Assembly: GCA_947495975.1 (NCBI GenBank)
Contig: CANMBE010000004.1
Span: 78,380-142,379 of the forward strand
Source: Ignavibacteria bacterium
GTDB lineage: Bacteria; Bacteroidota; Ignavibacteria; Kapaibacteriales; Kapaibacteriaceae
Direction of reading: 5' to 3'
DNA: 64,000 nt
Notes under the pieces: model-generated
Seen by the model: the letters and a program-made list of their open reading frames with translations, nothing else
Database searches by the model: none
Told to the model about the DNA's origin: nothing
Program-made: the position numbers and the translations under genes
Part shown: positions 16,390 to 46,686 of the stretch, piece after piece
Position numbering within the stretch: the first letter of the stretch is position 1
Layout of the letters: each line of letters begins with the position of its first letter

Positions 16390-16856
16390 GATCGATCACC
16401 GGGGGACTCCGGGCGATTGCCTCGAACACGCCCGGCGTGACGAGGAGGAAAGTCCGAACTCCATAGAACAGCACGCTTCTTAACTGGAAGGTGTTAAGCC
16501 CCTTCCCTTCACTGGGTAAGGGGCGAGGCAACGGAAAGTGCAACAGAAAGAAACCGCCGATGGCTGTACTTCGGTGCAGCACAGGTAAGGGTGAAATGGC
16601 AGGGTAAGAGCCTACCAGCGGCTGGGTGACCAGCCGGCTCGGCAAACCCCGTGCGGAGCAAGATCAAGCAGAGATGGAGGCGCTTCGGCGCTGGATGGTT
16701 GTTCGCCCCTTCCGCTTCGGCGGTGCCATCTCGGGTAGATCGCTTGAGACCCTTGGCAACAGAGGTCCTAGAGAAATGATCGCCTCCTTCGGTTCGCCGG
16801 AGAAGACAGAATTCGGCTTATAGGAGTCTCCCAGTGACCGATCATACTCAGCCTGT
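16390..16856 (+). ncRNA. rnpB: RNase P RNA, bacterial type A
   Basis: Universal motifs read directly: 'GAGGAAAGTCCGAACTCCA', 'ACAGAAAGAAACCGCC', 'GGTAAGGGTGAAATGGCAGGGTAAGAGCCTACCAGC', 'GGCAAACCCCGTGCGGAGCAAGATCAAGC', 'ACAGAATTCGGCTTATAGG'. The 5' 'GATCGATCACCGGGGGACTC' pairs with the 3' 'GAGTCTCCCAGTGACCGATC' as the P1 helix. Confidence 0.85.
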
Positions 16857-28452: not shown

Positions 28453-28488
28453 GATATACCCGCAAATATGGGTGAGTGCAAATGACCA

Positions 28489-28520
28489 CATAAAATAAGA
28501 AGAGCCGGCGGTCTCCCGTC
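28489..28520 (-). terminator. Probable terminator downstream of the YceI-family gene
   Basis: Imperfect hairpin 'GAGCCGGCGG-TCTC-CCGTCGGCTC' followed on the minus strand by a T-rich tract. Confidence 0.4.
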
Positions 28521-28573
28521 GGCTCTTGAAACATTTAAGTTCATTATTCAACCATTTCAGACAGCAAAGCCAA

Positions 28574-29221
28574 TTATGAATTCGCAAGGAGTTTGGCTTC
28601 GATAGCAATAGTTTCGCCAACGCTCTTACCAATAATCCCCGCTTTTCCAGCAATCTGATGGTCAGCCAAGGCAACTACGAATTTTGTGTCGATCATAACC
28701 AGGTTACCGGTAGCCCTCTTTGCGGTTTCCGCTGAAGCTGGGATGTAGGTGATAACCACGTTTGCCAGTGACGGCTTCGCTACTCCGTGGCATGTAAAAA
28801 CGCCAATAGCCGTAGCGGTTACCACGCTCTTGCCATCCTTCGTTACAACTTTAACGTCTTTTAGCGACTTTACATCAAAGGCTACTGTTGGGTGCGCATC
28901 TGCACCAAGCCACATTTCGCTATACATGTGACTATCTCGCTGTGAATTAGCCGTCTTCATGGACGTTACTTGCACTTCAATGCGCCCTGTTGTTGCTTCC
29001 AAATTGCTTGGATCTAATGTAAAGGAGCCAGACACACCGTCTGCCGTGCCTGTTATCTTCTCCATTGGTGCCTCTGAAACAAACTCAACTCCACTTTTGC
29101 CAACCGCATTGTTCATTGAGTACTTCTTTGCCCCTGCCTGGGCTCCAGAAATACCAGTACCGGCTGTTAGAACTGCTGATATGACGACGAGAAGCGCAAG
29201 TGTTGCAATGATGTTTCGCAT
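28574..29221 (-). CDS. YceI-family periplasmic (polyisoprenoid-binding) protein
   Basis: Signal peptide, then 'SGVEFVSEAPMEKITGT...GSFTLD...RDSHMYSEMWLGADAHPTVAF', the characteristic YceI pattern. Confidence 0.75.
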   Translation of the reverse strand: MRNIIATLALLVVISAVLTAGTGISGAQAGAKKYSMNNAVGKSGVEFVSEAPMEKITGTADGVSGSFTLDPSNLEATTGRIEVQVTSMKTANSQRDSHMYSEMWLGADAHPTVAFDVKSLKDVKVVTKDGKSVVTATAIGVFTCHGVAKPSLANVVITYIPASAETAKRATGNLVMIDTKFVVALADHQIAGKAGIIGKSVGETIAIEAKLLANS

Positions 29222-33700: not shown

Positions 33701-33899
33701 TAGACAATTGCAGTTTTCGCATCAAAGTGCATCTGGTTCGCTTGGCTCCGATCCAAATTCTGTGCCGCCGTCGAATGCAGCTTCTACGATACACAATGTA
33801 GGGCGCGAGGTTGGACGAAATGAATTGTGTCCATGCGGTTCCGGCAAGAAATTCAAATCTTGCCATGGTATCAATGGAGAGACCACGTACGGCTCTTGA
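30786..33899 (+). CDS. secA: Preprotein translocase ATPase SecA
   Basis: DEAD-like motor motifs 'EMSTGEGKTLV', 'DEVDSGLIDEARTPLIISG' and C-terminal zinc-binding 'CPCGSGKKFKSCHG'. 1037 aa. Confidence 0.95.
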   Translation: MIKFLKTVLGGSKHDKDVKALRPIVDEINRICDTLTPLSDDELTAKTTEFRTRILLAVHDLVEEADAIRERLRTDASIEHNDRSDLYARINANENEQFTAVQATLNEILPEAFAVVKEVCRRLVGHRYSVVGNETTWDMVPYDVQLIGAIVLHQGKISEMSTGEGKTLVSTLPMYLNALAGRGVHLVTVNDYLAKRDREWMRPVFDKLGVTTGCIQSEMRPEQRHEQYSSDITWGTNNEFGFDYLRDNMVTDASDMVQRGHWFAIVDEVDSGLIDEARTPLIISGPVTAGSTEAAFGEMKPRVQRLVEAQARYVNSIVAEAERLLTSSTKEDRAKAGVALLRSNRGMPKQSKLLKMLQDPDSLKLMRESELEYLKDQGQRMNIIDQELYFTVDEKNHQIDLSDKGRELVSTDQEDVEMFVIPDIASQMSELEGNANISDEEKTLHRDELMRVFSDRSDRIHIVNQMLRAYTLYVRDDEYVVQDGKIKIVDEFTGRILEGRRYSDGLHQAIEAKEGVFVEQDTQTFATVTLQNYFRLYHKLAGMTGTAETEAGEFWQIYKLDVVVIPTNRPTQRKDIDDLIFRTKREKYNAVVEAVQAELTKGRAVLVGTTSVEVSELLSKMLKRANVQHNVLNAKQHQREAEIVANAGKKGAVMIATNMAGRGTDIKLDPDVKAAGGLAIIGTERHEARRIDRQLRGRAGRQGDPGSSQFFISLEDDLMRLFGGERIAAVMQRLKVPDGEPIQSPLVTRSVENAQKKVESNNFGIRKRLLEYDNVMNQQREVIYDRRRHALMGERLRSEIIEYVRETTELWYDEYLESKDVVGFMNDVRVNMLCEPHITEDEFLSGKKDDVIQRVVDAAEEYYDRKESSLGPEFMASLERVAALRSIDDEWREHLRSMDDLKEGIYLRAYGQKDPILEYKKEAYGAFLDLISLINKATINFAFKYFPQVSESAPKRKAPAPLPTLAPSISASRQLQFSHQSASGSLGSDPNSVPPSNAASTIHNVGREVGRNELCPCGSGKKFKSCHGINGETTYGS

Positions 33900-34682
33900 T
33901 CAATGACATTCGTGTACGTGGATGTTGCCTTGCAGGTCTATAGCAATGTATTGTGACGGGTTGTCAGTCCAACAACCTGAGTTCAAATAACGTACGTCAC
34001 CAACCATGATGTCGATTGATCGATGCGTGTGGCCACAGAACACCACGTTGGCTTGGTGTTTCTTCTTTCCAAACAGGGCTGCATCGTGTCCAACTTTATC
34101 ACTAAGCCTTAGCCACTTCTTACTTGTACGCTTTACCCATCGTGAGGCACGGTGCTTAGGGTCAACCTTTTGGATTCCTAGATATATCCATGAGGCAATA
34201 GCAGTAATCACTTCATGCTCAGTGATCCACTTGTCAAATTGATGGCCATGTATTGCTAAATATCGAAGTCCATGTTGCTCCCACACGTATTCTTCGTGTA
34301 CTGGAATGCCAAGCAAGTGTGTGAGTATCTCCGCAACTCCTCCATCATGATTGCCCACAACCCACACTACCTCTATTCCTTTTTTCGGGTTTGATGTTTT
34401 ACGAATGAATGACAGGAACTTCCAATCGTCGCGAGTTAATCGTTTAAAATTCAAATCGTCAAAGACATCGCCATTGAGAATCAGTCTCTTGAATGACAAC
34501 AATCGCAATAGTTCTACGAGCCTTTTTGACCGCGATACATCCGAACCCAGATGTATATCGGAAACGATGATTGTGTCTAGATCGGCAGTGTGATCAAAGT
34601 AGACGGGCTGTAGCTCCTCATCAGAGAAGCTATGCTGCTCTTCACTCTCTGTCGGACTCAAAGGGTCTAAAGGCATGGGCAT
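33900..34682 (-). CDS. Metallophosphoesterase, LpxH-like (UDP-2,3-diacylglucosamine diphosphatase-like)
   Basis: 'VSDIHLG ... GDVFDD ... VVGNHD ... GHQFD ... CGHTH' calcineurin-like metal-ligand series. Last gene of the 33900-42142 operon. Confidence 0.65.
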   Translation of the reverse strand: MPMPLDPLSPTESEEQHSFSDEELQPVYFDHTADLDTIIVSDIHLGSDVSRSKRLVELLRLLSFKRLILNGDVFDDLNFKRLTRDDWKFLSFIRKTSNPKKGIEVVWVVGNHDGGVAEILTHLLGIPVHEEYVWEQHGLRYLAIHGHQFDKWITEHEVITAIASWIYLGIQKVDPKHRASRWVKRTSKKWLRLSDKVGHDAALFGKKKHQANVVFCGHTHRSIDIMVGDVRYLNSGCWTDNPSQYIAIDLQGNIHVHECH

Positions 34683-35400
34683 GCTGCATTAAATAGTTCG
34701 TCGGAAATCGATCATCAATGCCGTAACTACGTGGCTTCTTGTCTGGAGGCAGGTGTGCAGTTCCAAAAAGCCAATCCCACACGGCAATCTTTGTTGAGAA
34801 GTTACGATTATGTGCTTCATCGTCAGTAGCATGGTGCCAGCGATGCATTTCTGGGCCATTAACTACCCACTGAAGCCAGCCGCTTCGTACGTCAATGTTA
34901 GAGTGGATGTACATCCCCCAAATTGCATCAATACAACCCTTGATGACGGCCACTTCAGGGGATGCCAATAACAAGATTGGCAAGAACTCAACGCTCTGAT
35001 TGATTAAGATCTCCAGCGAGTGGGATCTACTTCCGCTCAGCCAATCAACATGCTTGGTAGAATGATGTGCTTCATGAAGTCTCCACAAGAAGGCATTATT
35101 GTGTTGCCATCTGTGAAACCAATAGATATAGAGGTCATGCACAACAAAAAAGATTGCCACTTGCAGCCACAGTGGAAGCGCACGGATTACATGGATACGT
35201 TCAAGATGTGTTGATGCATCAATCCAGCCTGTTACGCCGTATATCACCAATCCTAGCACATAGGTCTGCACAAGACCGTACCAAAAGAAGTCGTTAAAGA
35301 ATCCCTCACGTAGGAGTCTTTGTGATTTGTCATAAGGATAGATCCGCTCTAGGAGCACAAGGGTGCACGCTCCTAGAACGGTAATGACAAATGTCAACAA
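34642..35400 (-). CDS. Fatty acid hydroxylase / sterol desaturase superfamily integral-membrane di-iron enzyme
   Basis: His boxes 'HRWQH', 'HEAHHS', 'HRWHH' with multiple TM segments. Confidence 0.8.
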   Translation of the reverse strand: MLTFVITVLGACTLVLLERIYPYDKSQRLLREGFFNDFFWYGLVQTYVLGLVIYGVTGWIDASTHLERIHVIRALPLWLQVAIFFVVHDLYIYWFHRWQHNNAFLWRLHEAHHSTKHVDWLSGSRSHSLEILINQSVEFLPILLLASPEVAVIKGCIDAIWGMYIHSNIDVRSGWLQWVVNGPEMHRWHHATDDEAHNRNFSTKIAVWDWLFGTAHLPPDKKPRSYGIDDRFPTNYLMQHAHAFRPFESDRE

Positions 35401-35420
35401 GGATAGTTGAAGCTCCGTAC

Positions 35421-36386
35421 TCAGGCCGACACCTCTTCTGAACGCACGCGACGCAACTTTGCACGTGCACCCATTTCGCTGTCATACACACGCTTAATGC
35501 CATCACCGAGCGCAGATTCTATATCGCGTATGTCTCGCACCAATCTGCCAAGGCCACCAACTTCAACACTTGCTGCTTGGTCTGTACCCCACATTGCACG
35601 ATCAAGCGTTATGTGGCGCTCAACAAACGTTGCTCCCAAAGCAACAGCGGCGTACGTTGTAGCAAGACCAACTTCGTGTCCTGAATATCCAATAGGAATG
35701 TTCGGGAACTTCTGTTGCAATGTTCTGATCATCGAAAGATTTAACTCGTTCGTTGGGCATGGATAGCTCGACGTTGCATGTGCAATCAGCAAGCGGTCTT
35801 CGTTGAGCGAAGCCACTGCTGTTTCGATCTCTTCCATCGTGGACATACCCGTGGATATCACTAGGGGCTTGCCAGTTGATTGCATTGCACGTAACAAAGC
35901 AATGTCAGTCAGCGAAGCTGATGCCGCTTTGTAGAATGGCACTTCAAAATGCGCCTCCATAAATGCCACCGCTTCTTCATCCCAGCATGAAACGGTCCAG
36001 TCAATACCATTGTCACGGCAATAACTGTCGATCTCACCATAGTCTTCGGCGGTAAACTCTACCTTATGACGATAGTCGATATACGTCATACGACCCCACG
36101 GCGTATCGCGTTCTAGCAACCATTGATCTTTTGGAACACATAGCTCAGGAGTTCTCTTCTGAAACTTCACACAGTCTGCGCCTGCTGCAGCGGCACCATC
36201 AATCATCTTCTTTGTAACGTCTAAAGATCCATTGTGATTGATTCCGATCTCAGCAATGATGTATACCGGCGAAGTTGAGCCGATAGAACGAGTTCCGATA
36301 GATACTGATGCATTCATTACGTCTTCCTCGTAAATATGTGAATCTGAATTGTTGTTCGTCTTTTCACTCATCACCAAGCAGTCCAT
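35421..36386 (-). CDS. NeuB-family sialic-acid-synthase-like PEP-condensing enzyme, apparently lacking the C-terminal SAF domain
   Basis: 'VYIIAEIGINHNGSLDVTKKMI...ADCVKFQ', 'ISTGMSTMEEIETAV', 'GYSGHE' and 'ERHITLD' match the NeuB/PseI/SpsE TIM barrel. The protein ends ~25 aa after the barrel. Confidence 0.8.
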   Translation of the reverse strand: MDCLVMSEKTNNNSDSHIYEEDVMNASVSIGTRSIGSTSPVYIIAEIGINHNGSLDVTKKMIDGAAAAGADCVKFQKRTPELCVPKDQWLLERDTPWGRMTYIDYRHKVEFTAEDYGEIDSYCRDNGIDWTVSCWDEEAVAFMEAHFEVPFYKAASASLTDIALLRAMQSTGKPLVISTGMSTMEEIETAVASLNEDRLLIAHATSSYPCPTNELNLSMIRTLQQKFPNIPIGYSGHEVGLATTYAAVALGATFVERHITLDRAMWGTDQAASVEVGGLGRLVRDIRDIESALGDGIKRVYDSEMGARAKLRRVRSEEVSA

Positions 36387-37180
36387 CCACCGTCTACGAT
36401 GAGATTCTGCCCCGTCATATACCGCGATGCGTCGCCAGCTAAAAAAAGCAGAGCCCCTTTGTAGTCTGTTGCAGAAGCCATTCGGCCAAGTGGTGTTCGT
36501 CTACTGTAGTTATCGATGAAGTGTTGGTCTTGTCCGTTCTCAACGCCACCTGGAGAGAGGCAGTTGGCGCGTACGCCCTGCTTGCCCCAATACGTTGCGA
36601 GAAATTTTGTGAGCATTACAACAGCTCCCTTGCTCGTAGGATATGCGATGCTCTTGAAGAATGTCTGCTCACCAGTTGGCGTTTGGTAAATACTCTGATC
36701 AGGAGCTACAACGCCATACGTTGATGCGATGTTGATGATCGAACCACTGCCGGCTTCTGCCATCATCGATCCTAAAACCTGACACAGAGAGAATACTCCG
36801 GTCACATTTACATCCATAACGCGACGGAAGAGATCAACAGGATAATTTTCAAATCGAGATGATTCAATGGCAGAGAAGGGGCTCTCCACCATGTCATTCA
36901 TCGCAGCGTTGTTGACGAGGATGTCAAGCCTACCCTGTTCGTCAAGAATTCGGAGTTGCAACAATTGTATCGCCTGCCTATCTGTTACATCAAGCGTCAC
37001 TCCCACATGCTCTGGTCCGAGTTGTTGTGCAAGTACTTCAACCGATGTGGCAACAAGGTCACATGCGTATACGATTGCACCCGCGCTTGCGAGAGCGTCA
37101 CAGTGCTGCCTGCCGAGAAGTCCGGTGGCACCAGTAACAACGGCAATCTTACCTTCTAACTGGTTGAGGTCAACACTCAT
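36371..37180 (-). CDS. Short-chain dehydrogenase/reductase (SDR)
   Basis: 'KIAVVTGATGLLG' cofactor-binding motif, 'NNAA' and the Y-x3-K catalytic region. Confidence 0.85.
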   Translation of the reverse strand: MSVDLNQLEGKIAVVTGATGLLGRQHCDALASAGAIVYACDLVATSVEVLAQQLGPEHVGVTLDVTDRQAIQLLQLRILDEQGRLDILVNNAAMNDMVESPFSAIESSRFENYPVDLFRRVMDVNVTGVFSLCQVLGSMMAEAGSGSIINIASTYGVVAPDQSIYQTPTGEQTFFKSIAYPTSKGAVVMLTKFLATYWGKQGVRANCLSPGGVENGQDQHFIDNYSRRTPLGRMASATDYKGALLFLAGDASRYMTGQNLIVDGGWTAW

Positions 37181-38508
37181 ACACCAACGCTCACGTTACG
37201 TGGCTTTGTATTAAAGTTGCTCGTTTTGCGGAATACAGGCTCAACCGGAGTGCCTCTAAGTTTTTCACGGAGTGAACCAGTGAAGACAGCGGCGTGCAGA
37301 AGCTGGAGCACTTCGCGGTACACTTCAAGTGTGAGCATTACATCTTCGTTTGTATGCGCATATGACATGTTGTGGAACCCACCCCATAGGATTCCCCTAG
37401 CAATCATCTCTTGCTGAACATATGACTTCATAAGCAGAGGGTCGGCAACCGATCCATCAAACGCAACTATCGTGCGTGTGCCTAGCCCCTTGCATGTTAC
37501 ATACGTAATCCCAAGGTCAGAAATGATTGTATTAAGTCCATCGCGGAGTTTATCTCCAGTCTCTTCTATGCGGCGCGGTGCATCGTGATCGCGCAGGAAC
37601 TGAATGGTAGCTTTTGCTGCTGCAAGTGAAAGTGCTTCTCCACCAAACGTTGTAAAAAAGAAAACATCATGCTCGCACAATTGCATGATGTCTGCCCTAC
37701 CCGTAAGAATAGAGAGTGGCATCCCATTGGCCACTGCTTTGGAGAAACATGCAAGATCTGCCCGTACGTTAAATCGTTCTTGTGCACCACCAAGGGCGAT
37801 GCGGAATCCTGTCCACATTTCATCAAAGATGAGCAGGATGCCACGCTCATCGCATATCTCACGGAGGGTGTGTAGGAACCCTGCCTGAGGCTCTTCAAAG
37901 ACCATTGGCTCCAAGATGATTGCGGCTGTATCATCATCAATAGCTGCAAGCACACTCTCTGGATCATTGTAGCTAAATGTGTACGTCTGATCTCTTGTTG
38001 ATTGCGGTATTCCTGCGTTGCGATCTGTTGTTCCTATATACCAGTCGTGCCACCCATGATACCCACAACACAACACAGTATTGCGCCCCGTGTATGCACG
38101 CGCAAGTCTGATTGCAGCAGTAGTTACGTCGCATCCCGTTTTTGAATACCGTACACTCTCTGCGTTTGGAACTACGGCGCGTATAATCTCGGCCACTTCT
38201 ACTTCTAGTGGATGCATCAAGGAGAACGTTATACCATCACGAAGCTGGCGCTCAATGGCTCTGTCCACAACCTCATGGCCGTAGCCAAGAATCAGAGGTC
38301 CAACGGCCATTGTATAATCGAGATAGCGGTTCCCATCAACATCCCACAGATGCGCGCCTTTTGCACGGGCAGCGTAGATTGGTGCAACACCCTGTACGTA
38401 TTGTCCGGGACCTTTTGCCAGTGTCTGTGTGAATGCAGGGATCAGGCCTTCTGCGCGTCGAAGCATGTCCTGCGATGCAACGATCGATGGGTAATGTTGA
38501 TCACGCAT
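37177..38508 (-). CDS. Class-III (GSA-aminomutase-like) PLP aminotransferase
   Basis: 'GYGH' N-terminal motif, 'DEMWTGFR' and 'FSKAVANGMP' PLP-lysine region typical of HemL-like class-III aminotransferases. Confidence 0.85.
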   Translation of the reverse strand: MRDQHYPSIVASQDMLRRAEGLIPAFTQTLAKGPGQYVQGVAPIYAARAKGAHLWDVDGNRYLDYTMAVGPLILGYGHEVVDRAIERQLRDGITFSLMHPLEVEVAEIIRAVVPNAESVRYSKTGCDVTTAAIRLARAYTGRNTVLCCGYHGWHDWYIGTTDRNAGIPQSTRDQTYTFSYNDPESVLAAIDDDTAAIILEPMVFEEPQAGFLHTLREICDERGILLIFDEMWTGFRIALGGAQERFNVRADLACFSKAVANGMPLSILTGRADIMQLCEHDVFFFTTFGGEALSLAAAKATIQFLRDHDAPRRIEETGDKLRDGLNTIISDLGITYVTCKGLGTRTIVAFDGSVADPLLMKSYVQQEMIARGILWGGFHNMSYAHTNEDVMLTLEVYREVLQLLHAAVFTGSLREKLRGTPVEPVFRKTSNFNTKPRNVSVGV

Positions 38509-39451
38509 AGGATTGCTCCAGATTGCCGCTTGTTGCCCGCTTGTTACGTGTGTTCTTTATCCGATTTGCAACGAGATCGCCTGATAGACCTTCATGTGCG
38601 AGTACTTCAGGAAGAAGTGCTGGACGGAACCACGTTGTAAATCCAATTGGTAAGACTTCGCACGATTTGCGATTGCGAACGAGACATTCACATAGAATAC
38701 TGTAGAGTCCACCGGTAAGGAAATGATCTTCAAGCGTAACAACAAGATCACTGTTACTCGCCGCATCAAGAAGCCGTGCTTCGTCTATCGGCTTTAATGT
38801 TCGAAGATTTACTACTTGTACTGAGAGACCTTCAGCCGTGAGAATCGAAGCAGCAAGAACTGCTTGGCGCAACAACACGCCATACGTGAGAATAGTAACG
38901 TCCCTACGTCCATCCAGTGGCCCTGCTACAACCTCGGCAACGCCAGGAGTAAATGACGGTGAGTGTTCCACAGCAGCAGGTGCGTTGGTATAGCGCACGT
39001 AATAGGGTTGTCCGCTGAGGATCACGTCTTTGAGGCCGATCTTAAGGTCTTCTTCATCTGCTGGACAGAACACATTGATGTTTGGAATTCCACACATTAA
39101 TCCAACATCATCTATCGCTTGATGTGTTGGGCCGTTAGCATCGCTCAAAACACCCGGGACCATGCCAACCATGATTACCGGGAGATTTGGAATGCCAACA
39201 TCATCACGAATGAACTCAAATGCACGAAGTGTGATGAAAGATGCTAGCGCATGCGTCACAACGATTCGTCCACGCGCAGCAAGACCAGCAGCCATGCCGA
39301 TCATGGTCTGCTCTGCAATTCCTACATCGAGAAATTTGTCGCCGAGTAGCGCTGGCACATTTCGCATGTGACCGCGATTCTCTGCCGTAAGTATCATGAC
39401 GCGTTCATCTGACTGAACGCAGTCGAGTAAGATCGATTCGTAAGGGATCAT
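38501..39451 (-). CDS. Transketolase, C-terminal (pyrimidine-binding + C-terminal domain) subunit of a split enzyme
   Basis: 'FLDVGIAEQTMIGMAAGLA' and 'GPTHQAIDDVGLMCGIPN' transketolase signature segments. Confidence 0.85.
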   Translation of the reverse strand: MIPYESILLDCVQSDERVMILTAENRGHMRNVPALLGDKFLDVGIAEQTMIGMAAGLAARGRIVVTHALASFITLRAFEFIRDDVGIPNLPVIMVGMVPGVLSDANGPTHQAIDDVGLMCGIPNINVFCPADEEDLKIGLKDVILSGQPYYVRYTNAPAAVEHSPSFTPGVAEVVAGPLDGRRDVTILTYGVLLRQAVLAASILTAEGLSVQVVNLRTLKPIDEARLLDAASNSDLVVTLEDHFLTGGLYSILCECLVRNRKSCEVLPIGFTTWFRPALLPEVLAHEGLSGDLVANRIKNTRNKRATSGNLEQSYA

Positions 39452-40305
39452 CGCACCACCAATGTTTCTGAAGTAAGTGTTGCTACAGTCTCGCCGTGCA
39501 ATTCACCAATGAGCGCATCAATCTCGTCATGTGTGAAATTGCAGAACCAGCGATCGGCTCGCTCAGCAATGCTCGGCACGCCATGCCCGCGCTGAGTATC
39601 GGCGATTACTACTGTTGGCATTCCGTTGCGATTCGGGATCCGCTTGAATACTTCATCCAGATCTGCAAAATCATGACCATCTGCTTTTTCTACATTCCAT
39701 CCGAATGCTTCAAACTTTATGGCAAGGGGCTCAAGAGGTATCAGTTCTTCAGTGCGCGTATTTGCCTGAAAATGGTTGCGATCAACTACAGCGATCAGAT
39801 TATCGGCGCGCAATGCGTGCGCCGTAAGGCAAGCTTCCCATACGCTGCCTTCGTTGAGTTCACCGTCGCCCAGAATCACAACAACATTACTATCTACCCC
39901 ACGCATTCTCATATCGATGGCCATTCCTAGGCCTACACTTAGTAGGTGGCCAAGAGAGCCTGAGTGAAATTCTACACCCGGGATATTCCGATTGGGGTGC
40001 CAATAGATATCGTCGTGCACTCGAAGGTGATTCTTCAATCTGTCGCCTGTGATGTACCCTAGTTCAGCAAAGACTCCATAGAGTGCGGGAACATCATGCC
40101 CCTTTGATAACAAGAGAATATCTCGATCGGGAGAATTGAGAGTATCTGGTGTGATGTGCAAGTACTGTGTGTACAGATATACAAGGAGATCAGCACATGA
40201 GAGCGATGCACCAGTGAAACAGCCACCGTCAGTGGACATGCGTAAGATGTGTTCTCGCACGCGAAGAGCAATTGCTGGAAGTTGGGCTAGAGTGTGTGAG
40301 GTCAT
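39448..40305 (-). CDS. Transketolase, N-terminal (TPP-binding) subunit of a split enzyme
   Basis: 'SKGHDVPALY' and 'ILGDGELNEGSVWEA' TPP-binding motifs. 4-nt overlap with the C-terminal subunit gene. Confidence 0.85.
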   Translation of the reverse strand: MTSHTLAQLPAIALRVREHILRMSTDGGCFTGASLSCADLLVYLYTQYLHITPDTLNSPDRDILLLSKGHDVPALYGVFAELGYITGDRLKNHLRVHDDIYWHPNRNIPGVEFHSGSLGHLLSVGLGMAIDMRMRGVDSNVVVILGDGELNEGSVWEACLTAHALRADNLIAVVDRNHFQANTRTEELIPLEPLAIKFEAFGWNVEKADGHDFADLDEVFKRIPNRNGMPTVVIADTQRGHGVPSIAERADRWFCNFTHDEIDALIGELHGETVATLTSETLVVR

Positions 40306-41132
40306 ACTGGTTGTGAATGTGATGGATAGTCGCGCGTATGCCGCTCATCAATTGTTTTTAGTTGGTCTATGTGATTACGGTACCAGTTCACACCTGCCAA
40401 GTGTGCATTCGCACCAGCTACTTCGGGGTGATCAATCAAAAACGAAAGAATCTTTGCTGTGCTAAATCGAGGATGTATGAGGTAGAGATTATCGTAGATG
40501 GCTTTCATGAGCACGTAGTCCTCGGGATAGTCAATCGTCCAGCGATGACTCATGCTAAGGTCGAGACCGTTACTCCAAGAAACATTCGAAACCCTTACTT
40601 CAGGATTGTTATCCCACATCCAGGGAGTTGTATGCTCTCGCTCGTGTGGTTGTTCTGCCGCATGCCACGCTCGCTCTAGCACCTTCATGCTCATCACTTC
40701 AACGTCATTACCATCGGGCCATGTACCTGGATGAAGATTGCTGACGTAGTCCACCGAGTCTACGTTATCGATATACGCACCAATGACTGCATCAATAACT
40801 GAAGGATCAATGAGTGGACAGTCAGAAGGGATTTTTACAACCACATCGGCTTGATACGCAAGTGCCGCACGGTAATGCCTATCCAACAAATCTGTTGAGT
40901 GTCCCCTAAACACGTTGTATCCCGCATCAGCACATGTGTTCGCTAGAACGTCATCGCATGTTTCTTCTGTTGTAGCCACAACTATTTGTGTGGCAAGTCT
41001 TGATTGAGCTACTCTCTCAAGAAACCTCAGGATAAGGGGCTGTCCAGCCAAGGGCAGCAGCACCTTCCGTGGAAGGCGTGTAGATCCAAGTCGAGCTTGG
41101 CATACAATGATGATTCGCAAAACGGTCACGAC
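40302..41132 (-). CDS. SpsF/NeuA-type cytidylyltransferase (CMP-sugar synthetase family)
   Basis: 'IVCQARLGSTRLPRKVL' is the SpsF-type variant of the acylneuraminate cytidylyltransferase P-loop. Start set near the motif; the ATG at 41204 would add 24 aa and overlap the upstream gene by 79 nt. Confidence 0.7.
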   Translation of the reverse strand, partial: VVTVLRIIIVCQARLGSTRLPRKVLLPLAGQPLILRFLERVAQSRLATQIVVATTEETCDDVLANTCADAGYNVFRGHSTDLLDRHYRAALAYQADVVVKIPSDCPLIDPSVIDAVIGAYIDNVDSVDYVSNLHPGTWPDGNDVEVMSMKVLERAWHAAEQPHEREHTTPWMWDNNPEVRVSNVSWSNGLDLSMSHRWTIDYPEDYVLMKAIYDNLYLIHPRFSTAKILSFLIDHPEVAGANAHLAGVNWYRNHIDQLKTIDERHTRDYPSHSQPV

Positions 41133-42142
41133 ATACTTCCTGCATAAACACGTGGCAAAGTCACGGCGATTTGTAAGCCCAATGTGTCCAACACTTCTTG
41201 GCACACAGCTGCAATGTTCTCACCAGATTTGCCACTGTTTTGAACCGGGCATAGTTCCTTCAGTGTTTCGATTGGGAAATCGCTATGTACTGTTTTTCCA
41301 AGTGCAATGCCAACGTATACACACGATGAGTACTTGGTGATCAGTGTATCGCAGCTTGCGATAAGGGGCTCAATAGGCCTACCATGTAGGATAGTTGATT
41401 GCGGCGCCCAGCGCTCTATCTCGGCGATGGCTCTATCAATTTGTTCATTTGGATGAAGTTTGAATATTACTTCTTTGCCATTTGCAATCGCGAGTGCACG
41501 ATCAATCGTTGTCTTTCGACTTTCGTATTTAAATGTCTCGCGTGCATCGCTCGTGGCAACGAGAACGAAGCCTTTTCGCTCATACGGCTGGGCTGCGTAC
41601 TCCACACAGTTATCAAAGTTTGGAATTCCTGTCACAACAAGTTTGCGACTGCGTGCCCCTTTTCGTATAAAGTGTGTTTTGTATCCCTCCGAAGCAACAC
41701 ACATGCGCATATACGCGTCAGACATGCCAAATGTAGACGTCGATGCCAGGTATCGTGGCAATCCGAGATACTTCACGAGGTAATACGCCATGTTTTCAGG
41801 ATCAGTCATTCCTTCCTGAACCAACACAACGCGTCCGTGGCGGATGTTCTTGGGCACAACAAGATCACTACACGTCACCACAAGGTCATACATGTGGCGG
41901 GATCCACGAAAGTCTATCTGTTTACCGTGGAGCTCTAGGAAGCCGAGGGCACGCGATTGGTGTCCTTGTCCGGCAACCGTCCACTCTATAAGTTTCTTTC
42001 GCTCAAGGATGCCAATAAACCCATCAGTGTAGTGTGGTGTAAACCAGCAATCATGATGCGCCAAGTGTTGGGATATCTTCTCCATCATAGTGGTTTGGTT
42101 CATGGAACCACAAATGAAGAGGATTCTACGGCGTGTTCTCAT
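41126..42142 (-). CDS. Hypothetical protein, first gene of the sugar operon; possible glycosyltransferase-fold (PseG/SpsG-like?) enzyme
   Basis: 338 aa, no signal peptide, alternating alpha/beta character ('ILFICGSMNQ...', 'RKLVVTGIPNFD'). The assignment rests on size and operon context only. Confidence 0.35.
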   Translation of the reverse strand: MRTRRRILFICGSMNQTTMMEKISQHLAHHDCWFTPHYTDGFIGILERKKLIEWTVAGQGHQSRALGFLELHGKQIDFRGSRHMYDLVVTCSDLVVPKNIRHGRVVLVQEGMTDPENMAYYLVKYLGLPRYLASTSTFGMSDAYMRMCVASEGYKTHFIRKGARSRKLVVTGIPNFDNCVEYAAQPYERKGFVLVATSDARETFKYESRKTTIDRALAIANGKEVIFKLHPNEQIDRAIAEIERWAPQSTILHGRPIEPLIASCDTLITKYSSCVYVGIALGKTVHSDFPIETLKELCPVQNSGKSGENIAAVCQEVLDTLGLQIAVTLPRVYAGSMS

Positions 42143-42327
42143 GCGCTATTACTACCTATACGTGGTTCGGCGAAACATTCAACTCGCGAACTTCACCGTA
42201 TAACATCACGCATATGTAACGCCAACATCAACGAATTGTAGCACGTAAAGCCCCAATAATGAAAGGGGCGTAGCGCATTATCCACAAGCACACTTTAGGG
42301 TGGCCACCAAAACACGTAACAATTTGG

Positions 42328-45060: not shown

Positions 45061-46686
45061 CTACAGCGTTACAGTACTCTCGTTGACCGATTCAAGAGCG
45101 CGACTCATTGCTGCGAGTGCTTGTGTTGCAAGTGCACCGTCAATAACGCGGTGATCGTAGGTGATGGATAGATAAACCATACTACGAATAACGATAACGT
45201 CTTCACCATCGAGTTCGCGAACAACTGGACGTTTTTGGATAGCACCAATGCCAATGATAGCTGTCTGTGGTTGATTGATTACAGGCGTTCCAAACAGCGA
45301 GCCAAATGACCCAACGTTTGTAACAGTAATTGTGCCGCCAGAGATATCATCTGGCGTAAGCTTCTTTGAACGTGCGCGCAGTGCAAGGTCATTCATCACA
45401 CGTCCAACACCAGTGATGTTGAGTGTGTCTGCATTCTTGATCACTGGCACTATCAGATTGCCATCTGGCAACGCCGTTGCCATTCCAAGATGAACACGCT
45501 TGTGTTGAATGATGTTCTTTCCATCAACACTTACATTGATTCGTGGGTATGCCTTTACACCCTCACATACAGCCCAACCAAAGAATGGGTTGTATGTAAG
45601 CTTAAAGCCTTCACGCTTTTGAAAACTATCTTTATACTTTTCTCGGAGCTTCACAATTCCGGTAACGTCAACTTCTGCTACACTCGTTACATGTGCAGAT
45701 GTTTGCTTTGAACGCGTCATGTGCTCAGAGATGAGCTGACGCATGCGATCCATCGGAATGATCTCAGATTCGCCACCAGCCATCGGAGCATTTAAAACAA
45801 GCGCTAGAGCCGTAGCCGCTGGAGCAGGTGCAATTGCAAGCGCTGCCACATGCCCATTCCCACGCTTGGCTAAAAATGCCTGAACATCAGTTTTTGTCAC
45901 ACGCCCTTCAAGACCAGTTCCTGTGATCGCATCTAGTTCACCAACGCTGATATTCTCGGATGCAGAGATACTTCGTACAAGGGGCGAATAGAATCTCCCA
46001 CCCGATTGACGAGGCACTGCTCCATGCACAGTGGCTTGCAAAGGCGCTTGCGCAGGTGCTGAAACGGGTGCTGAAACGGGTGCTGAAACGGGTGCTGAAA
46101 CAGTACCTGAAACAGCTATGCGCGCAACCACTTTCCCAACTTCAACCACATCACCCTCATTTGCGAGTACTGCAGACAATACTCCTGCAGTTGGCGATGG
46201 CACCTCGGTGTCGACTTTGTCAGTAGAGATTTCAAGGAGCACTTCGTCTCGCTCAACCTTGTCTCCTAATTTCTTAACCCAACGAAGTACCGTGCCCTCT
46301 TGAATTGATTCACCCATCTTTGGCATTACTACTTCAACGTCGCCCGCTCCAGTCAATGGCGCTGGCGCATTCGCTAGCGCAGTCGCTGGCACTGGCACTG
46401 GCACTGGCGCAGTCGCTGGCACTGGCGCAGTCGCTGGCACTGAAACCGATTCTCCGTTAAGAACCACAATCACCTTTCCAACTTCAACTACATCGCCTTC
46501 GGCGAAGAGAATCTGCGAGATTACGCCGGCCGATGGAGACGGAACTTCCGTGTCCACTTTATCCGTAGAGATCTCAACGATTACTTCATCTCGTTCAACC
46601 TTGTCTCCAACTTTTTTGACCCATCGAAGAATCGTTCCTTCTTGGATTGATTCTCCCATCTTTGGCATCACTACTTCAACGCTCAT
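45061..46686 (-). CDS. 2-oxo-acid dehydrogenase E2 (dihydrolipoamide acyltransferase) with two lipoyl domains, likely the pyruvate dehydrogenase E2
   Basis: Two 'EISTDKVDTEVPSP' lipoyl-lysine domains, a peripheral subunit-binding domain 'SPLVRSISASE', and the catalytic 'DHRVIDGA'. Confidence 0.88.
   Translation of the reverse strand: MSVEVVMPKMGESIQEGTILRWVKKVGDKVERDEVIVEISTDKVDTEVPSPSAGVISQILFAEGDVVEVGKVIVVLNGESVSVPATAPVPATAPVPVPVPATALANAPAPLTGAGDVEVVMPKMGESIQEGTVLRWVKKLGDKVERDEVLLEISTDKVDTEVPSPTAGVLSAVLANEGDVVEVGKVVARIAVSGTVSAPVSAPVSAPVSAPAQAPLQATVHGAVPRQSGGRFYSPLVRSISASENISVGELDAITGTGLEGRVTKTDVQAFLAKRGNGHVAALAIAPAPAATALALVLNAPMAGGESEIIPMDRMRQLISEHMTRSKQTSAHVTSVAEVDVTGIVKLREKYKDSFQKREGFKLTYNPFFGWAVCEGVKAYPRINVSVDGKNIIQHKRVHLGMATALPDGNLIVPVIKNADTLNITGVGRVMNDLALRARSKKLTPDDISGGTITVTNVGSFGSLFGTPVINQPQTAIIGIGAIQKRPVVRELDGEDVIVIRSMVYLSITYDHRVIDGALATQALAAMSRALESVNESTVTL
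46056..46115. repeat. 12-nt tandem repeat (5 copies) encoding the (PAPV/SAPV)n inter-domain linker of E2
   Basis: 'GGTGCTGAAACG' x3, then GGTGCTGAAACA and GTACCTGAAACA. Confidence 0.7.
46372..46442. repeat. 6/18-nt tandem repeats (CACTGG / GCGCAGTCGCTGGCACTG) encoding the first E2 linker
   Basis: '...GCAGTCGCTGGCACTGGCACTGGCACTGGCGCAGTCGCTGGCACTGGCGCAGTCGCTGGCAC'. Confidence 0.7.

What the first reader, a model, noticed from the sequence alone, without database searches (positions are those of the whole stretch)
33900..42142. Nine-gene overlapping operon combining a NeuB-like synthase, SpsF-type cytidylyltransferase, SDR, class-III aminotransferase, split transketolase and lipid-modifying enzymes
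All nine minus-strand genes from 42142 down to 33900 overlap or abut. Junctions sit at 41126-41132, 40302-40305, 39448-39451, 38501-38508, 37177-37180 and 36371-36386; there is a 20-nt gap at 35400/35421 and an overlap at 34642-34682. This implies one transcript and coupled translation. The NeuB + cytidylyltransferase pair predicts a CMP-activated 3-deoxy-2-ulosonic acid. The aminotransferase is class III (GSA-like) rather than the usual DegT type. A two-subunit transketolase sits mid-operon, and the operon ends in a di-iron fatty-acid-hydroxylase-family membrane enzyme plus an LpxH-like phosphoesterase. None of the textbook nonulosonic or octulosonic acid pathways (Neu5Ac, Pse, Leg, Kdo, Kdo8N) uses this enzyme set. 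It looks like an undescribed pathway for a transketolase-derived (chain-extended or branched) amino-ulosonic sugar, perhaps delivered to a lipid or LPS core.
Basis: partly seen in the sequence, partly recalled or inferred. Interest (0 to 1): 0.75.

Follow-up and report, generated by a model that had tools for sequence, protein, structure and literature searches.

The report
Uncharacterised Kdn-type ulosonic acid operon
This is a real, tightly packed nine-gene operon, conserved across several bacterial phyla and not described in any paper I could find, that most likely builds an amino-modified sialic-acid-like sugar, activates it with CMP and attaches it to a membrane lipid.

Summary
Nine minus-strand genes (33900-42142) overlap or abut, and eight have the predicted domains. 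The block g1-g8 keeps its gene order in Bacteroidota, Ignavibacteriota, Kapabacteria, Myxococcota and Chloroflexota.

- The NeuB-like synthase belongs to a very conserved clade without a SAF domain. It is 61-75% identical across phyla and about 65% identical to the NeuB of Streptomyces loci that look like the Kdn teichulosonic-acid cluster.
- In most relatives this NeuB sits next to a KdsC/Kdn-9-P-type phosphatase. That indicates a phosphorylated, Kdn-type route.
- The window lacks that phosphatase. It carries the metallophosphoesterase g9 instead, which is not LpxH-like by any test.
- The unannotated first gene is a new GT-B family, close to TagF and 2-epimerases by fold. In relatives it is fused to, or adjacent to, an MprF-type flippase domain. 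This points to a lipid acceptor.
- The split transketolase is a divergent subfamily that lacks the usual phosphate-binding residues. Some relatives lack it, so its role is unresolved.
- In some lineages a PhyH dioxygenase replaces the FA_hydroxylase.

No paper describing this gene set was found. I rate it a new variant of a known kind (CMP-ulosonic acid pathway). The chemistry and the acceptor are inferred, not shown.

The parts
42143..42327 (-). Upstream spacer, the probable promoter region of the operon
   Evidence: This is the only sizeable intergenic gap (185 nt). A terminator-like hairpin at 42332-42315 follows the cytochrome c peroxidase gene. One weak sigma-70-like site lies at 42306-42277. 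No Rfam family matches here. Promoter function is inferred.
41126..42142 (-). g1: new GT-B-fold family. Probable transferase that passes the cytidine-nucleotide-activated product to a (lipid) acceptor.
40302..41129 (-). g2: SpsF-type cytidylyltransferase (CTP_transf_3)
   Evidence: Pfam CTP_transf_3 at 98.9 bits. The N-terminal half matches KdsB models below their cut-offs. The best solved relative is 6oew 'cytidylyltransferase', E=3e-39. The GTG start at 41129 overlaps the g1 stop.
39448..40305 (-). g3: split transketolase, N-terminal (ThDP-binding) subunit
   Evidence: Transketolase_N at 102 bits. The best solved relative is the Carboxydothermus split transketolase 6yak, E=1e-44. The GDG...N ThDP motif is present.
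38501..39451 (-). g4: split transketolase, C-terminal (pyrimidine-binding) subunit of a divergent subfamily
   Evidence: Transket_pyr + Transketolase_C. Best solved relative 6yaj. A clade-specific TAENRxxxR motif replaces DADLSxST. The Arg equivalent to human R474 (E. coli DXS also has an Arg here) is Asn156 and is not conserved in orthologues. The N-terminal Arg segment is absent.
37177..38508 (-). g5: class-III (GSA-like) PLP aminotransferase
   Evidence: Aminotran_3 at 166 bits. NCBIfam PRK06209 at 368 bits (cut-off 486), GntE-like at 263 bits, hemL at 244 bits (cut-off 527). PDB relatives are GSA aminomutases and aldehyde/ketone transaminases such as aminopentol and C-6' aminotransferases.
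36371..37180 (-). g6: short-chain dehydrogenase/reductase
   Evidence: adh_short_C2 at 155 bits. All NCBIfam hits are below cut-off; the best are gluconate 5-dehydrogenase-like and PRK09186.
35421..36386 (-). g7: NeuB-family ulosonic acid (phosphate) synthase without a SAF domain, of the Kdn-type clade
   Evidence: NeuB at 252 bits. TIGR03569 at 244 bits is below its 399.65 cut-off. It is 61-75% identical across phyla and 63-67% identical to NeuB in Streptomyces loci arranged like SCO4879-4881. In most relatives it lies next to a KdsC/Kdn-9-P-type HAD phosphatase.
34642..35400 (-). g8: membrane di-iron hydroxylase (FA_hydroxylase family)
   Evidence: FA_hydroxylase at 104 bits. OlsE model at 123.5 bits is far below its 475 cut-off. 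His boxes HRWQH, HEAHH and HRWHH are visible in the translation. It lies directly downstream of NeuB in 34 loci. A PhyH dioxygenase takes its place in 4 loci, and the two never occur together.
33900..34682 (-). g9: calcineurin-type metallophosphoesterase. A lineage-specific addition and candidate ulosonate-phosphate phosphatase.
   Evidence: Metallophos at 41.8 bits. No LpxH model or LpxH structure is hit. It is present only in the window, its identical copies L001-L003, and L007, L008, L020, L021 and L088, all of which lack the HAD phosphatase. In the Fisher subset the split is 5 g9 only (L008 left out for contig length), 27 HAD only, 6 neither and 0 both, Fisher p=9e-4, not corrected for phylogeny.

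Best explanation
The block is one operon for a membrane-lipid head group built from an aminated, Kdn-type 3-deoxy-2-ulosonic acid.

Proposed steps (all inferred from family membership and gene context unless stated):
1. g7 condenses PEP with a phosphorylated aldose, most simply Man-6-P, to give an ulosonate phosphate. This is the route of Bacteroides BT1714.
2. The phosphate is removed. Most relatives use a KdsC/Kdn-9-P-type HAD encoded next to NeuB. This lineage probably uses the metallophosphoesterase g9.
3. The SDR g6 oxidises a hydroxyl to a carbonyl, and the class-III aminotransferase g5 converts it to an amine. This is the logic of Kdo8N or kanosamine synthesis.
4. The divergent split transketolase g3/g4 lacks the usual sugar-phosphate-binding residues. 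It either adds a two-carbon ketol unit to an aldehyde intermediate, which would create the ketone that g5 aminates, or it supplies a precursor. It is dispensable, or encoded elsewhere, in some relatives.
5. g2 activates the acid with CTP.
6. g1, a new GT-B family with TagF-like nucleotide-binding motifs, transfers the activated product to a membrane lipid.
7. g8 hydroxylates the lipid or the glycolipid.

Shown here: the gene geometry, the domain identities, the conservation of gene order, and the fusions and adjacencies. Inferred: every substrate, the order of steps, and the acceptor.
For: Operon geometry.

Domains.

Conservation: g1-g8 keep their order in Bacteroidota, Ignavibacteriota, Kapabacteria, Myxococcota and Chloroflexota.

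NeuB clade: it is 61-75% identical across phyla and about 65% identical to the NeuB of Streptomyces loci. Those loci also encode a NeuA-HAD fusion, DUF6716 and a polysialyltransferase-family protein. This matches the published SCO4873-4882 Kdn teichulosonic-acid cluster (PMC3479208, PMC13011467, PMC11481543).

Phosphatase: a KdsC-type HAD lies directly upstream of NeuB in most loci. Its best NCBIfam model in Chlorobiales is the Kdn-9-P phosphatase (159.8 bits, cut-off 180). The Man-6-P to Kdn-9-P to Kdn to CMP-Kdn route is biochemically established (PMC6200933). HAD and g9 are mutually exclusive.

Lipid acceptor:
- g1 is fused to the MprF-type LPG_synthase_TM domain in three representatives.
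- In L093 that fusion is the first gene of the same operon.
- A separate LPG_synthase_TM gene abuts g1 in four myxobacterial loci and lies in the same locus in the Lewinellaceae-type variant.
- There is no other glycosyltransferase, Wzx/Wzy or polysaccharide exporter in or near the block.
- A membrane di-iron hydroxylase follows NeuB in 34 loci.
- 13 of 30 g1 homologues give weak MGDG_synth hits.

g1 goes with the ulosonate: in the L055 variant g1 travels with HAD-NeuB and a PseF/NeuA-type cytidylyltransferase, without transketolase or aminotransferase.

Precedents for a Kdn or neuraminic-acid lipid head group: a Kdn sphingolipid in E. huxleyi (PMC6200933) and the Chlorobium aminoglycosphingolipid (cited in PMC11762602). 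That the latter contains neuraminic acid is my recollection.
Against: - No substrate or product was tested.
- g1 cannot be assigned among 2-epimerase, TagF-like phosphotransferase and glycosyltransferase. All sequence matches are sub-threshold and the fold scores are close.
- The window itself has no flippase-like gene.
- L022 carries both the HAD and a distantly related metallophosphoesterase. Six loci have neither HAD nor g9. The phosphatase-replacement idea is therefore only suggestive.
- The transketolase keeps the Asp that recognises an alpha-hydroxy aldehyde, but its real substrates are unknown.
- The SDR is missing from L041, L063 and L067.
- In Chlorobi only HAD-NeuB(-FAH) are clustered.
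- FA_hydroxylase can be replaced by a soluble PhyH dioxygenase. This fits hydroxylation of the sugar at least as well as hydroxylation of a lipid.
- The equation of the Streptomyces loci with SCO4881 rests on gene arrangement, not on a direct sequence comparison.
Confidence: 0.5

Rival explanations
1. It is an ordinary surface-glycan pathway. The operon makes a CMP-activated (amino)ulosonic acid, and g1 adds it to a protein, the LPS core, peptidoglycan or a polysaccharide, not to a bulk membrane lipid. g8 acts on the sugar, as KdoO does on Kdo.
For: NeuB + cytidylyltransferase is the signature of nonulosonic/octulosonic acid glycan pathways. The nearest characterised context of this NeuB clade is a wall polymer in Streptomyces (PMC3479208). 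A soluble PhyH dioxygenase replaces FA_hydroxylase in four loci, which suits a soluble or sugar substrate. The window has no flippase-like gene.
Against: There is no polymerase, Wzx/Wzy, ABC exporter or second glycosyltransferase in or near any of the conserved loci. The housekeeping neighbourhood and the very high sequence conservation are untypical of variable surface-glycan loci. g1 is repeatedly fused or adjacent to an MprF-type lipid-flippase domain.
Confidence: 0.25
2. There are two modules rather than one linear pathway. Transketolase + aminotransferase (+SDR) make a 2-amino-polyol: a ketol is transferred to an aldehyde and the new ketone is then transaminated, as in synthetic transketolase-transaminase cascades. 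The product would be a short amino-alditol phosphate or a long-chain sphingoid-like base. g2 makes a CDP derivative and the TagF-like g1 transfers the phospho-alcohol. NeuB/phosphatase/hydroxylase form a separate ulosonic acid module.
For: The C-terminal motifs of g1 and its only profile hit in the PDB are TagF-like (CDP-alditol phosphotransferases). g1-g2-g3-g4-g5 form one contiguous half of the operon and (SDR)-HAD-NeuB-FAH the other. Only the second half is clustered in Chlorobi and in L025. The transketolase lacks the sugar-phosphate-binding arginines, which is compatible with a non-phosphorylated, even hydrophobic, aldehyde. Every locus without transketolase keeps the SDR, and every locus without the SDR keeps the transketolase.
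Against: All characterised CTP_transf_3 enzymes that I know of activate 2-keto-3-deoxy acids with CMP, whereas CDP-alditol synthases belong to other families (established knowledge, not tested here). In this model nothing in the operon would activate or transfer the ulosonic acid. In the L055 variant g1 travels with NeuB and a PseF/NeuA-type cytidylyltransferase without transketolase or aminotransferase. The transketolase keeps the Asp that binds the 2-hydroxyl of sugar acceptors.
Confidence: 0.13
3. g1 is a NeuC-like (hydrolysing) NDP-sugar 2-epimerase. The operon would then be a variant of the classical bacterial sialic/legionaminic acid route starting from a nucleotide sugar, with the transferase encoded elsewhere.
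Confidence: 0.1

Closest known systems
Bacteroides thetaiotaomicron CMP-Kdn pathway (BT1714 Kdn-9-P synthase, BT1713 KdsC-type Kdn-9-P phosphatase, BT1715 CMP-Kdn synthetase; described in PMC6200933)
   Same: A NeuB-family synthase is paired with a KdsC-type HAD phosphatase (in most relatives) and a CTP_transf_3 cytidylyltransferase. This implies the route phosphorylated aldose + PEP, then ulosonate phosphate, then free acid, then CMP-acid. The HAD in Chlorobiales scores best on the Kdn-9-P phosphatase model.
   Different: This operon adds a class-III aminotransferase, an SDR, a split transketolase, a new GT-B protein and a membrane hydroxylase. The cytidylyltransferase is SpsF-type. In the window a metallophosphoesterase stands where the HAD phosphatase is expected. 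Identity to BT1714 itself could not be measured here.
Streptomyces coelicolor teichulosonic acid (Kdn polymer) cluster SCO4873-SCO4882 (PMC3479208, PMC13011467, PMC11481543)
   Same: The NeuB of Streptomyces loci with the same arrangement (DUF6716, NeuA-HAD fusion, NeuB, polysialyltransferase-family gene) is 63-67% identical to g7.
   Different: The Streptomyces loci have no transketolase, aminotransferase, SDR, g1 or FA_hydroxylase. Their product is a wall polymer made by polysialyltransferase-like enzymes.
Kdo8N formation in Shewanella (KdnB dehydrogenase + KdnA aminotransferase acting on Kdo); recalled from memory, not checked here
   Same: The logic of oxidising a hydroxyl of an ulosonic acid and transaminating the carbonyl. 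This is the simplest role for g6 + g5.
   Different: The enzyme families differ: a metal-dependent alcohol dehydrogenase and a different aminotransferase class. The sugar is an octulosonic acid on LPS. No homology was tested.
MprF and other LPG_synthase_TM (flippase-like) proteins coupled to lipid head-group enzymes
   Same: The same membrane domain (PF03706) is fused to g1-family proteins or encoded next to them. This matches the pattern in which a cytoplasmic head-group transferase is coupled to translocation of the modified lipid. MprF's function is established knowledge.
   Different: The catalytic partner here is a GT-B protein, not an aminoacyl-PG synthase. The window's own operon has no such domain.
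TagF/TarL CDP-alditol phosphotransferases and GT-B sialyltransferases
   Different: g1 is below the Pfam cut-off for Glyphos_transf (13 bits against 22.1). No match to sialyltransferase families was found. The donor and the type of reaction are untested.
Kdn- or neuraminic-acid-bearing lipids: the Emiliania huxleyi Kdn sphingolipid (PMC6200933) and the Chlorobium limicola aminoglycosphingolipid (Jensen et al. 1991, cited in PMC11762602)
   Same: These are precedents for a sialic-acid-type sugar as a lipid head group. Chlorobi carry the HAD-NeuB(-FA_hydroxylase) core.
   Different: No gene has been tied to either lipid. The composition of the Chlorobium lipid is quoted from memory. Chlorobi loci lack g1-g6 nearby.

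Membership tests
NeuB / sialic acid synthase family (g7) | NeuB TIM-barrel domain (PF03102) above the Pfam cut-off | tested here: met
   252.4 bits against a cut-off of 22.1, covering the full profile 1-241
NeuB / sialic acid synthase family (g7) | C-terminal SAF (antifreeze-like) domain, as in N. meningitidis NeuB | tested here: not met
   No SAF hit. The protein ends about 20 residues after the barrel. SAF-less NeuB proteins are known from environmental bacteria (PMC8208679).
N-acetylneuraminate synthase or pseudaminic acid synthase equivalogs (g7) | Score above the NCBIfam equivalog cut-off | tested here: not met
   TIGR03569 at 244.3 against 399.65; TIGR03586 at 195.4 against 340.25
Kdn-9-P type pathway (BT1713-1715-like) | A KdsC-type HAD phosphatase encoded next to the synthase | tested here: not met
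   Absent from the window (tblastn). Present directly upstream of NeuB in 27 of 38 comparable loci. The window has the metallophosphoesterase g9 instead.
Kdn-9-P type pathway (BT1713-1715-like) | The synthase uses Man-6-P and PEP | not testable with these tools
   Only indirect: 63-67% identity to the NeuB of Streptomyces loci arranged like the Kdn teichulosonic-acid cluster.
Classical Neu5Ac/Leg/Pse pathways | NDP-sugar 4,6-dehydratase, DegT-type aminotransferase and N-acetyltransferase in the locus | tested here: not met
   None of the nine proteins hits these families. The aminotransferase is class III.
Classical Neu5Ac/Leg pathways | NeuC-type hydrolysing 2-epimerase | tested here: inconclusive
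TagF-like CDP-glycerol glycerophosphotransferases (PF04464) (g1) | Pfam match above cut-off | tested here: not met
   13 bits against 22.1 for the window protein. 22 of 30 relatives match weakly, best E=3.7e-6. A profile hit to TagF-like Cps3D has E=5e-4 and covers the C-terminal 73 positions only.
CMP-ulosonate synthetases, CTP_transf_3 (g2) | CTP_transf_3 domain above cut-off, including the N-terminal nucleotide-binding motif | tested here: met
   98.9 bits against 22.6. The motif IIVCQARLGSTRLPRK lies directly after the GTG 41129 start.
KdsB, PseF or NeuA equivalogs (g2) | Score above the NCBIfam equivalog cut-off | tested here: not met
   Best is 70.2 bits against 255 (KdsB subfamily). PseF scores 25.9 against 205.7.
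Housekeeping transketolase (g3/g4) | ThDP-binding motif and catalytic Glu (GIAEQ) | tested here: met
   GDGELNEG...N and GIAEQ are present.
Housekeeping transketolase (g3/g4) | Conserved residues that bind the substrate phosphate (equivalents of human R318, S345 and R474) | tested here: not met
   The R474 position is Asn156 and varies among orthologues. The N-terminal Arg segment is absent. The DADLSxST motif is replaced by TAENRxxxR. Residue roles are from my knowledge of the human and E. coli enzymes.
Housekeeping transketolase (g3/g4) | Being the organism's only transketolase | not testable with these tools
   Only 64 kb of the genome is available. None of the window ORFs scanned with Pfam is a transketolase, but most of the window's ORFs were not scanned. 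The pair is absent from six related operons.
Glutamate-1-semialdehyde aminomutase HemL (g5) | Score above the equivalog cut-off | tested here: not met
   TIGR00713 at 244.4 against 527.3; PRK06209 at 368.2 against 486.
Ornithine lipid hydroxylase OlsE (g8) | Score above the equivalog cut-off | tested here: not met
   123.5 bits against 475. Only membership of the FA_hydroxylase superfamily is met (104 bits against 31).
LpxH, UDP-2,3-diacylglucosamine hydrolase (g9) | A match to LpxH models or LpxH structures | tested here: not met
   No LpxH family appears among the NCBIfam hits; the best is PdeM at 34.6 bits against 150. No LpxH chain appears among PDB hits at E<=1. Only the generic Metallophos domain is met.

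The most novel reading that the evidence does not exclude
The operon encodes a previously undescribed class of bacterial membrane lipid. Its head group would be a new amino-ulosonic acid: a Kdn skeleton oxidised at its terminal carbon, extended by two carbons by a dedicated transketolase, and then transaminated, giving an eleven-carbon sialic-acid relative. A new GT-B transferase family would attach it, and an MprF-type flippase would export it in some lineages. This would be the first use of a transketolase in ulosonic-acid biosynthesis. It would also offer a genetic handle on sialic-acid-type lipids such as the Chlorobium aminoglycosphingolipid.
Probability: 0.15. Interest if true: 0.85.

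Novelty: new variant of a known kind. Interest (0 to 1): 0.62.

Why it matters
Sialic-acid-like sugars in bacteria are known mainly as variable surface decorations of pathogens. This is different: a highly conserved, compact pathway sits among housekeeping genes of environmental Bacteroidota, Ignavibacteriota, Kapabacteria, Myxococcota and Chloroflexota. It uses an enzyme set (split transketolase, class-III aminotransferase, new GT-B family, membrane hydroxylase) found in no described ulosonic-acid route, and gene fusions point to a lipid target.

If that holds, it defines a widespread new polar lipid or glycoconjugate and a new transferase family. It would also give the first physiological role for a divergent split-transketolase subfamily. 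Cultured carriers exist (for example Hymenobacter negativus BT442), so the prediction can be tested directly.

Tried and rejected
- Exact-sequence look-up of the 321-aa NeuB ORF found nothing. The public call starts five codons later (P0001).
- Literature searches for the enzyme combination, for nonulosonic acid + transketolase, and for Kdn/glycolipid/sphingolipid found no description of the cluster.
- g1 has no sequence match in the PDB. Its profile does not match any glycosyltransferase-like protein of the Streptomyces locus.
- 'LpxH-like' for g9 is rejected: no LpxH hit in NCBIfam or the PDB.
- 'OlsE' for g8 and 'HemL' for g5 are rejected as memberships because the scores are far below the cut-offs.
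- A riboswitch or other Rfam element upstream of the operon: none found.
- The g1-FA_desaturase fusion P0252 lies on a 3.3-kb contig. Its desaturase part is not homologous to g8, so I gave it little weight.
- The g1-Aminotran_3 'fusion' P0253 may be a gene-calling artefact and was not used.
- The idea that g9 simply replaces the HAD phosphatase is weakened by L022, which has both a HAD and a distant metallophosphoesterase.
- N-glycolyl transfer by the transketolase, as in quinocarcin-type pathways (recalled from memory), was considered. No carrier protein is present in the operon.

Full report
**1. The observation**

Reading the junctions base by base gives:

- ATGA overlaps at g2/g3, g3/g4 and g5/g6.
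- An 8-nt overlap at g4/g5.
- A GTGA overlap at g1/g2. The likely g2 start is GTG 41129, just before the nucleotide-binding motif.
- A 1- or 16-nt overlap at g6/g7.
- A gap of 20 nt (or 62 nt) at g7/g8.
- A 35-41-nt overlap at g8/g9.

All nine genes stop with TGA. A 185-nt spacer lies upstream. Convergent secA ends at 33899, against the g9 stop at 33900. Promoter-like and terminator-like matches inside the block are not above the shuffled expectation. Composition matches the rest of the window. Co-transcription is therefore likely but inferred.

Pfam confirms eight of the nine domain calls, and g1 has no family. The NCBIfam hits of these proteins are all below the curated equivalog or subfamily cut-offs. 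The proteins belong to the named superfamilies but to no named orthologue group.

**2. Context and source**

The flanks are housekeeping genes: SecA, a class-V aminotransferase, cytochrome c peroxidase, ThyX, a 2-oxoacid dehydrogenase E2, MetH, LysRS/AsnRS-type synthetase and an RNase P RNA. There is also a T9SS-sorted Ig-repeat protein.

No glycosyltransferase, Wzx/Wzy or polysaccharide exporter is near. The same DNA occurs on long ENA metagenome scaffolds. The closest named relatives are Candidatus Kapabacteria.

**3. Conservation**

A scan of one genome per species with an alignment of the NeuB-like protein returned 80 loci. tblastn of all nine proteins against them shows g1-g8 in the same order in:

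- Bacteroidota (Chitinophagales, Saprospiraceae, Puia, Hymenobacter negativus)
- Ignavibacteriota
- Kapabacteria
- Myxococcota
- Chloroflexota

Protein identities are 40-75%. The variants are informative:

- The transketolase pair is absent from six Ignavibacteriaceae loci that keep g1, g2, g5, g6, NeuB and g8.
- The SDR is absent from three loci that keep the transketolase.
- g9 occurs only in the window's close relatives.
- Chlorobi keep only HAD-NeuB(-FA_hydroxylase) together.

**4. The NeuB clade and the phosphatase**

g7 lacks the SAF domain and is unusually conserved, at 61-75% identity across phyla.

It is 63-67% identical to the NeuB of Streptomyces loci. Those loci also encode a CTP_transf_3-HAD fusion, DUF6716 and a polysialyltransferase-family protein. 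This arrangement matches the published SCO4873-4882 cluster for the Kdn-containing teichulosonic acid (PMC3479208, PMC13011467, PMC11481543).

In most loci a KdsC-type HAD phosphatase of about 175 aa sits directly upstream of NeuB. In Chlorobiales its best model is the Bacteroides Kdn-9-P phosphatase (159.8 bits, cut-off 180). The route Man-6-P + PEP to Kdn-9-P to Kdn to CMP-Kdn has been shown biochemically for Bacteroides and Prymnesium (PMC6200933).

I therefore read g7 as a synthase of the phosphorylated, Kdn-type route. The substrate itself is inferred.

The window has no HAD gene. Among 38 comparable loci, 27 have HAD only, 5 have g9 only, 6 have neither and none has both (Fisher p=9e-4, not corrected for phylogeny). 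So g9 is a candidate replacement phosphatase. It shows no relation to LpxH. L022 carries both a HAD and a distant metallophosphoesterase, which weakens the idea.

**5. g1**

At sequence level all 30 aligned homologues give sub-threshold Epimerase_2 hits and 22 give sub-threshold Glyphos_transf hits. The profile finds only the TagF-like polymerase Cps3D in the PDB, over the C-terminal nucleotide-binding region.

An exhaustive profile search finds only 980 representative proteins. It is therefore a small family of its own.

Three representatives are fusions with the MprF-type LPG_synthase_TM domain. In L093 the fusion is the first gene of the same operon, followed by CTP_transf_3 and Transketolase_N. 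A separate LPG_synthase_TM gene abuts g1 in four myxobacterial loci and lies in the Lewinellaceae-type variant.

In that variant g1 travels with HAD-NeuB, a PseF/NeuA-type cytidylyltransferase, a GFO/IDH/MocA oxidoreductase and a PhyH dioxygenase, without transketolase or aminotransferase.

I conclude that g1 goes with the activated ulosonic acid and most likely transfers it to a membrane lipid. A 2-epimerase role is not excluded.

**6. Transketolase, aminotransferase and SDR**

g3/g4 are closest to the biochemically real split transketolase of Carboxydothermus. They keep the ThDP motif, the catalytic Glu and the His/Asp of the acceptor site.

The whole orthologue group differs in three ways:

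- DADLSxST is replaced by TAENRxxxR.
- The N-terminal arginine segment is missing.
- There is no conserved arginine at the position of human R474, where E. coli DXS also has an Arg.

This is not what a housekeeping pentose-phosphate enzyme looks like, and the pair is missing from some related operons.

g5 is a GSA-like class-III enzyme. Its solved relatives include transaminases of aldehydes and ketones on sugars and polyols.

The simplest chemistry is SDR oxidation followed by transamination of the ulosonic acid. The transketolase would either extend an aldehyde intermediate by a ketol unit or feed a precursor. None of this is shown.

**7. The hydroxylase**

g8 has the His boxes of the FA_hydroxylase superfamily and follows NeuB in 34 loci. 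In four loci without it a soluble PhyH-type dioxygenase is present, and the two never occur together. In Chloroflexota and Actinobacteria that variant also carries a two-domain GNAT.

A hydroxylation step is therefore conserved. Its target, lipid or sugar, is open.

**8. Comparison and novelty**

The block works like a CMP-Kdn/sialic-acid pathway of the phosphorylated type. It fails the membership tests for every named orthologue group (see the table), and it adds enzymes that no described ulosonic-acid route uses.

Searches of the held literature found no description. Subscription journals are largely outside that library.

Precedents for a Kdn or neuraminic acid lipid head group exist in E. 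huxleyi (PMC6200933) and, from my memory of Jensen et al. 1991 (cited in PMC11762602), in Chlorobium.

I rate it a new variant of a known kind. Confidence is about 0.8 that it is a cytidine-nucleotide-activated ulosonic acid pathway, about 0.5 for the full model, and also about 0.5 that the acceptor is a lipid.

Noticed in passing
window 16401-16836 (+): Bacterial class A RNase P RNA (RF00010, 247 bits, full-length model match).
   Followed up: no
window 33897-33902: The secA stop codon (TGA, ending at 33899) and the g9 stop codon (TGA on the minus strand, 33902-33900) are directly adjacent. The two convergent transcription units share no spacer and no recognisable terminator.
   Followed up: partly
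window 33900-42142 (-): All nine genes of the operon end with TGA. Whether this reflects the genome-wide stop-codon usage was not checked.
   Followed up: no
window 26011-28674 (-) and 1616-6325 (-): An 887-aa protein has several Ig-type repeats and a weak match to the T9SS C-terminal sorting domain (Por_Secre_tail, at its cut-off). A 1569-aa protein's only Pfam hit is a C-terminal FlgD_ig-like domain. The first fits an FCB-group organism that secretes large surface proteins.
   Followed up: no
window 45061-46686 (-): A 2-oxoacid dehydrogenase E2 with two lipoyl domains lies 3 kb upstream of the operon. It is not part of the conserved block in other phyla.
   Followed up: no
L093 4409-6550; L089 341-2413; L092 8046-10175: Natural fusions of an MprF-type LPG_synthase_TM domain with the g1-family GT-B domain. 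In L093 the fusion heads the same operon.
   Followed up: yes
L022 10967-13995; L030 1552-3608; L019 1897-3003; L032 5535-6647: The Chloroflexota/Actinobacteria variant encodes a 370-aa two-domain GNAT directly after NeuB. In L022 a metallophosphoesterase and a PhyH dioxygenase follow it in place of the FA_hydroxylase, and in L030 the PhyH dioxygenase follows it directly.
   Followed up: partly
L055 2062-4434: A 790-aa double glucose/sorbosone dehydrogenase (GSDH) beta-propeller protein is inserted between NeuB and the g1 homologue in a Bacteroidota variant locus.
   Followed up: no
L004 6229-7302 (-); L087 2494-3558 (-): In Chlorobiales and Chloroherpetonaceae a Glyco_transf_21 (ceramide glucosyltransferase-type) GT2 gene lies a few kb from the HAD-NeuB-FA_hydroxylase trio. 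This could be relevant to a glycosphingolipid, or it could be coincidental.
   Followed up: no
L007 (CALRYC010000008.1): The record is titled 'Chitinophaga pinensis' MAG. It carries the operon variant (with g9, without HAD) and the highest NeuB identity (75%) otherwise seen in Kapabacteria-like sequences, so the taxonomic label may be wrong.
   Followed up: no
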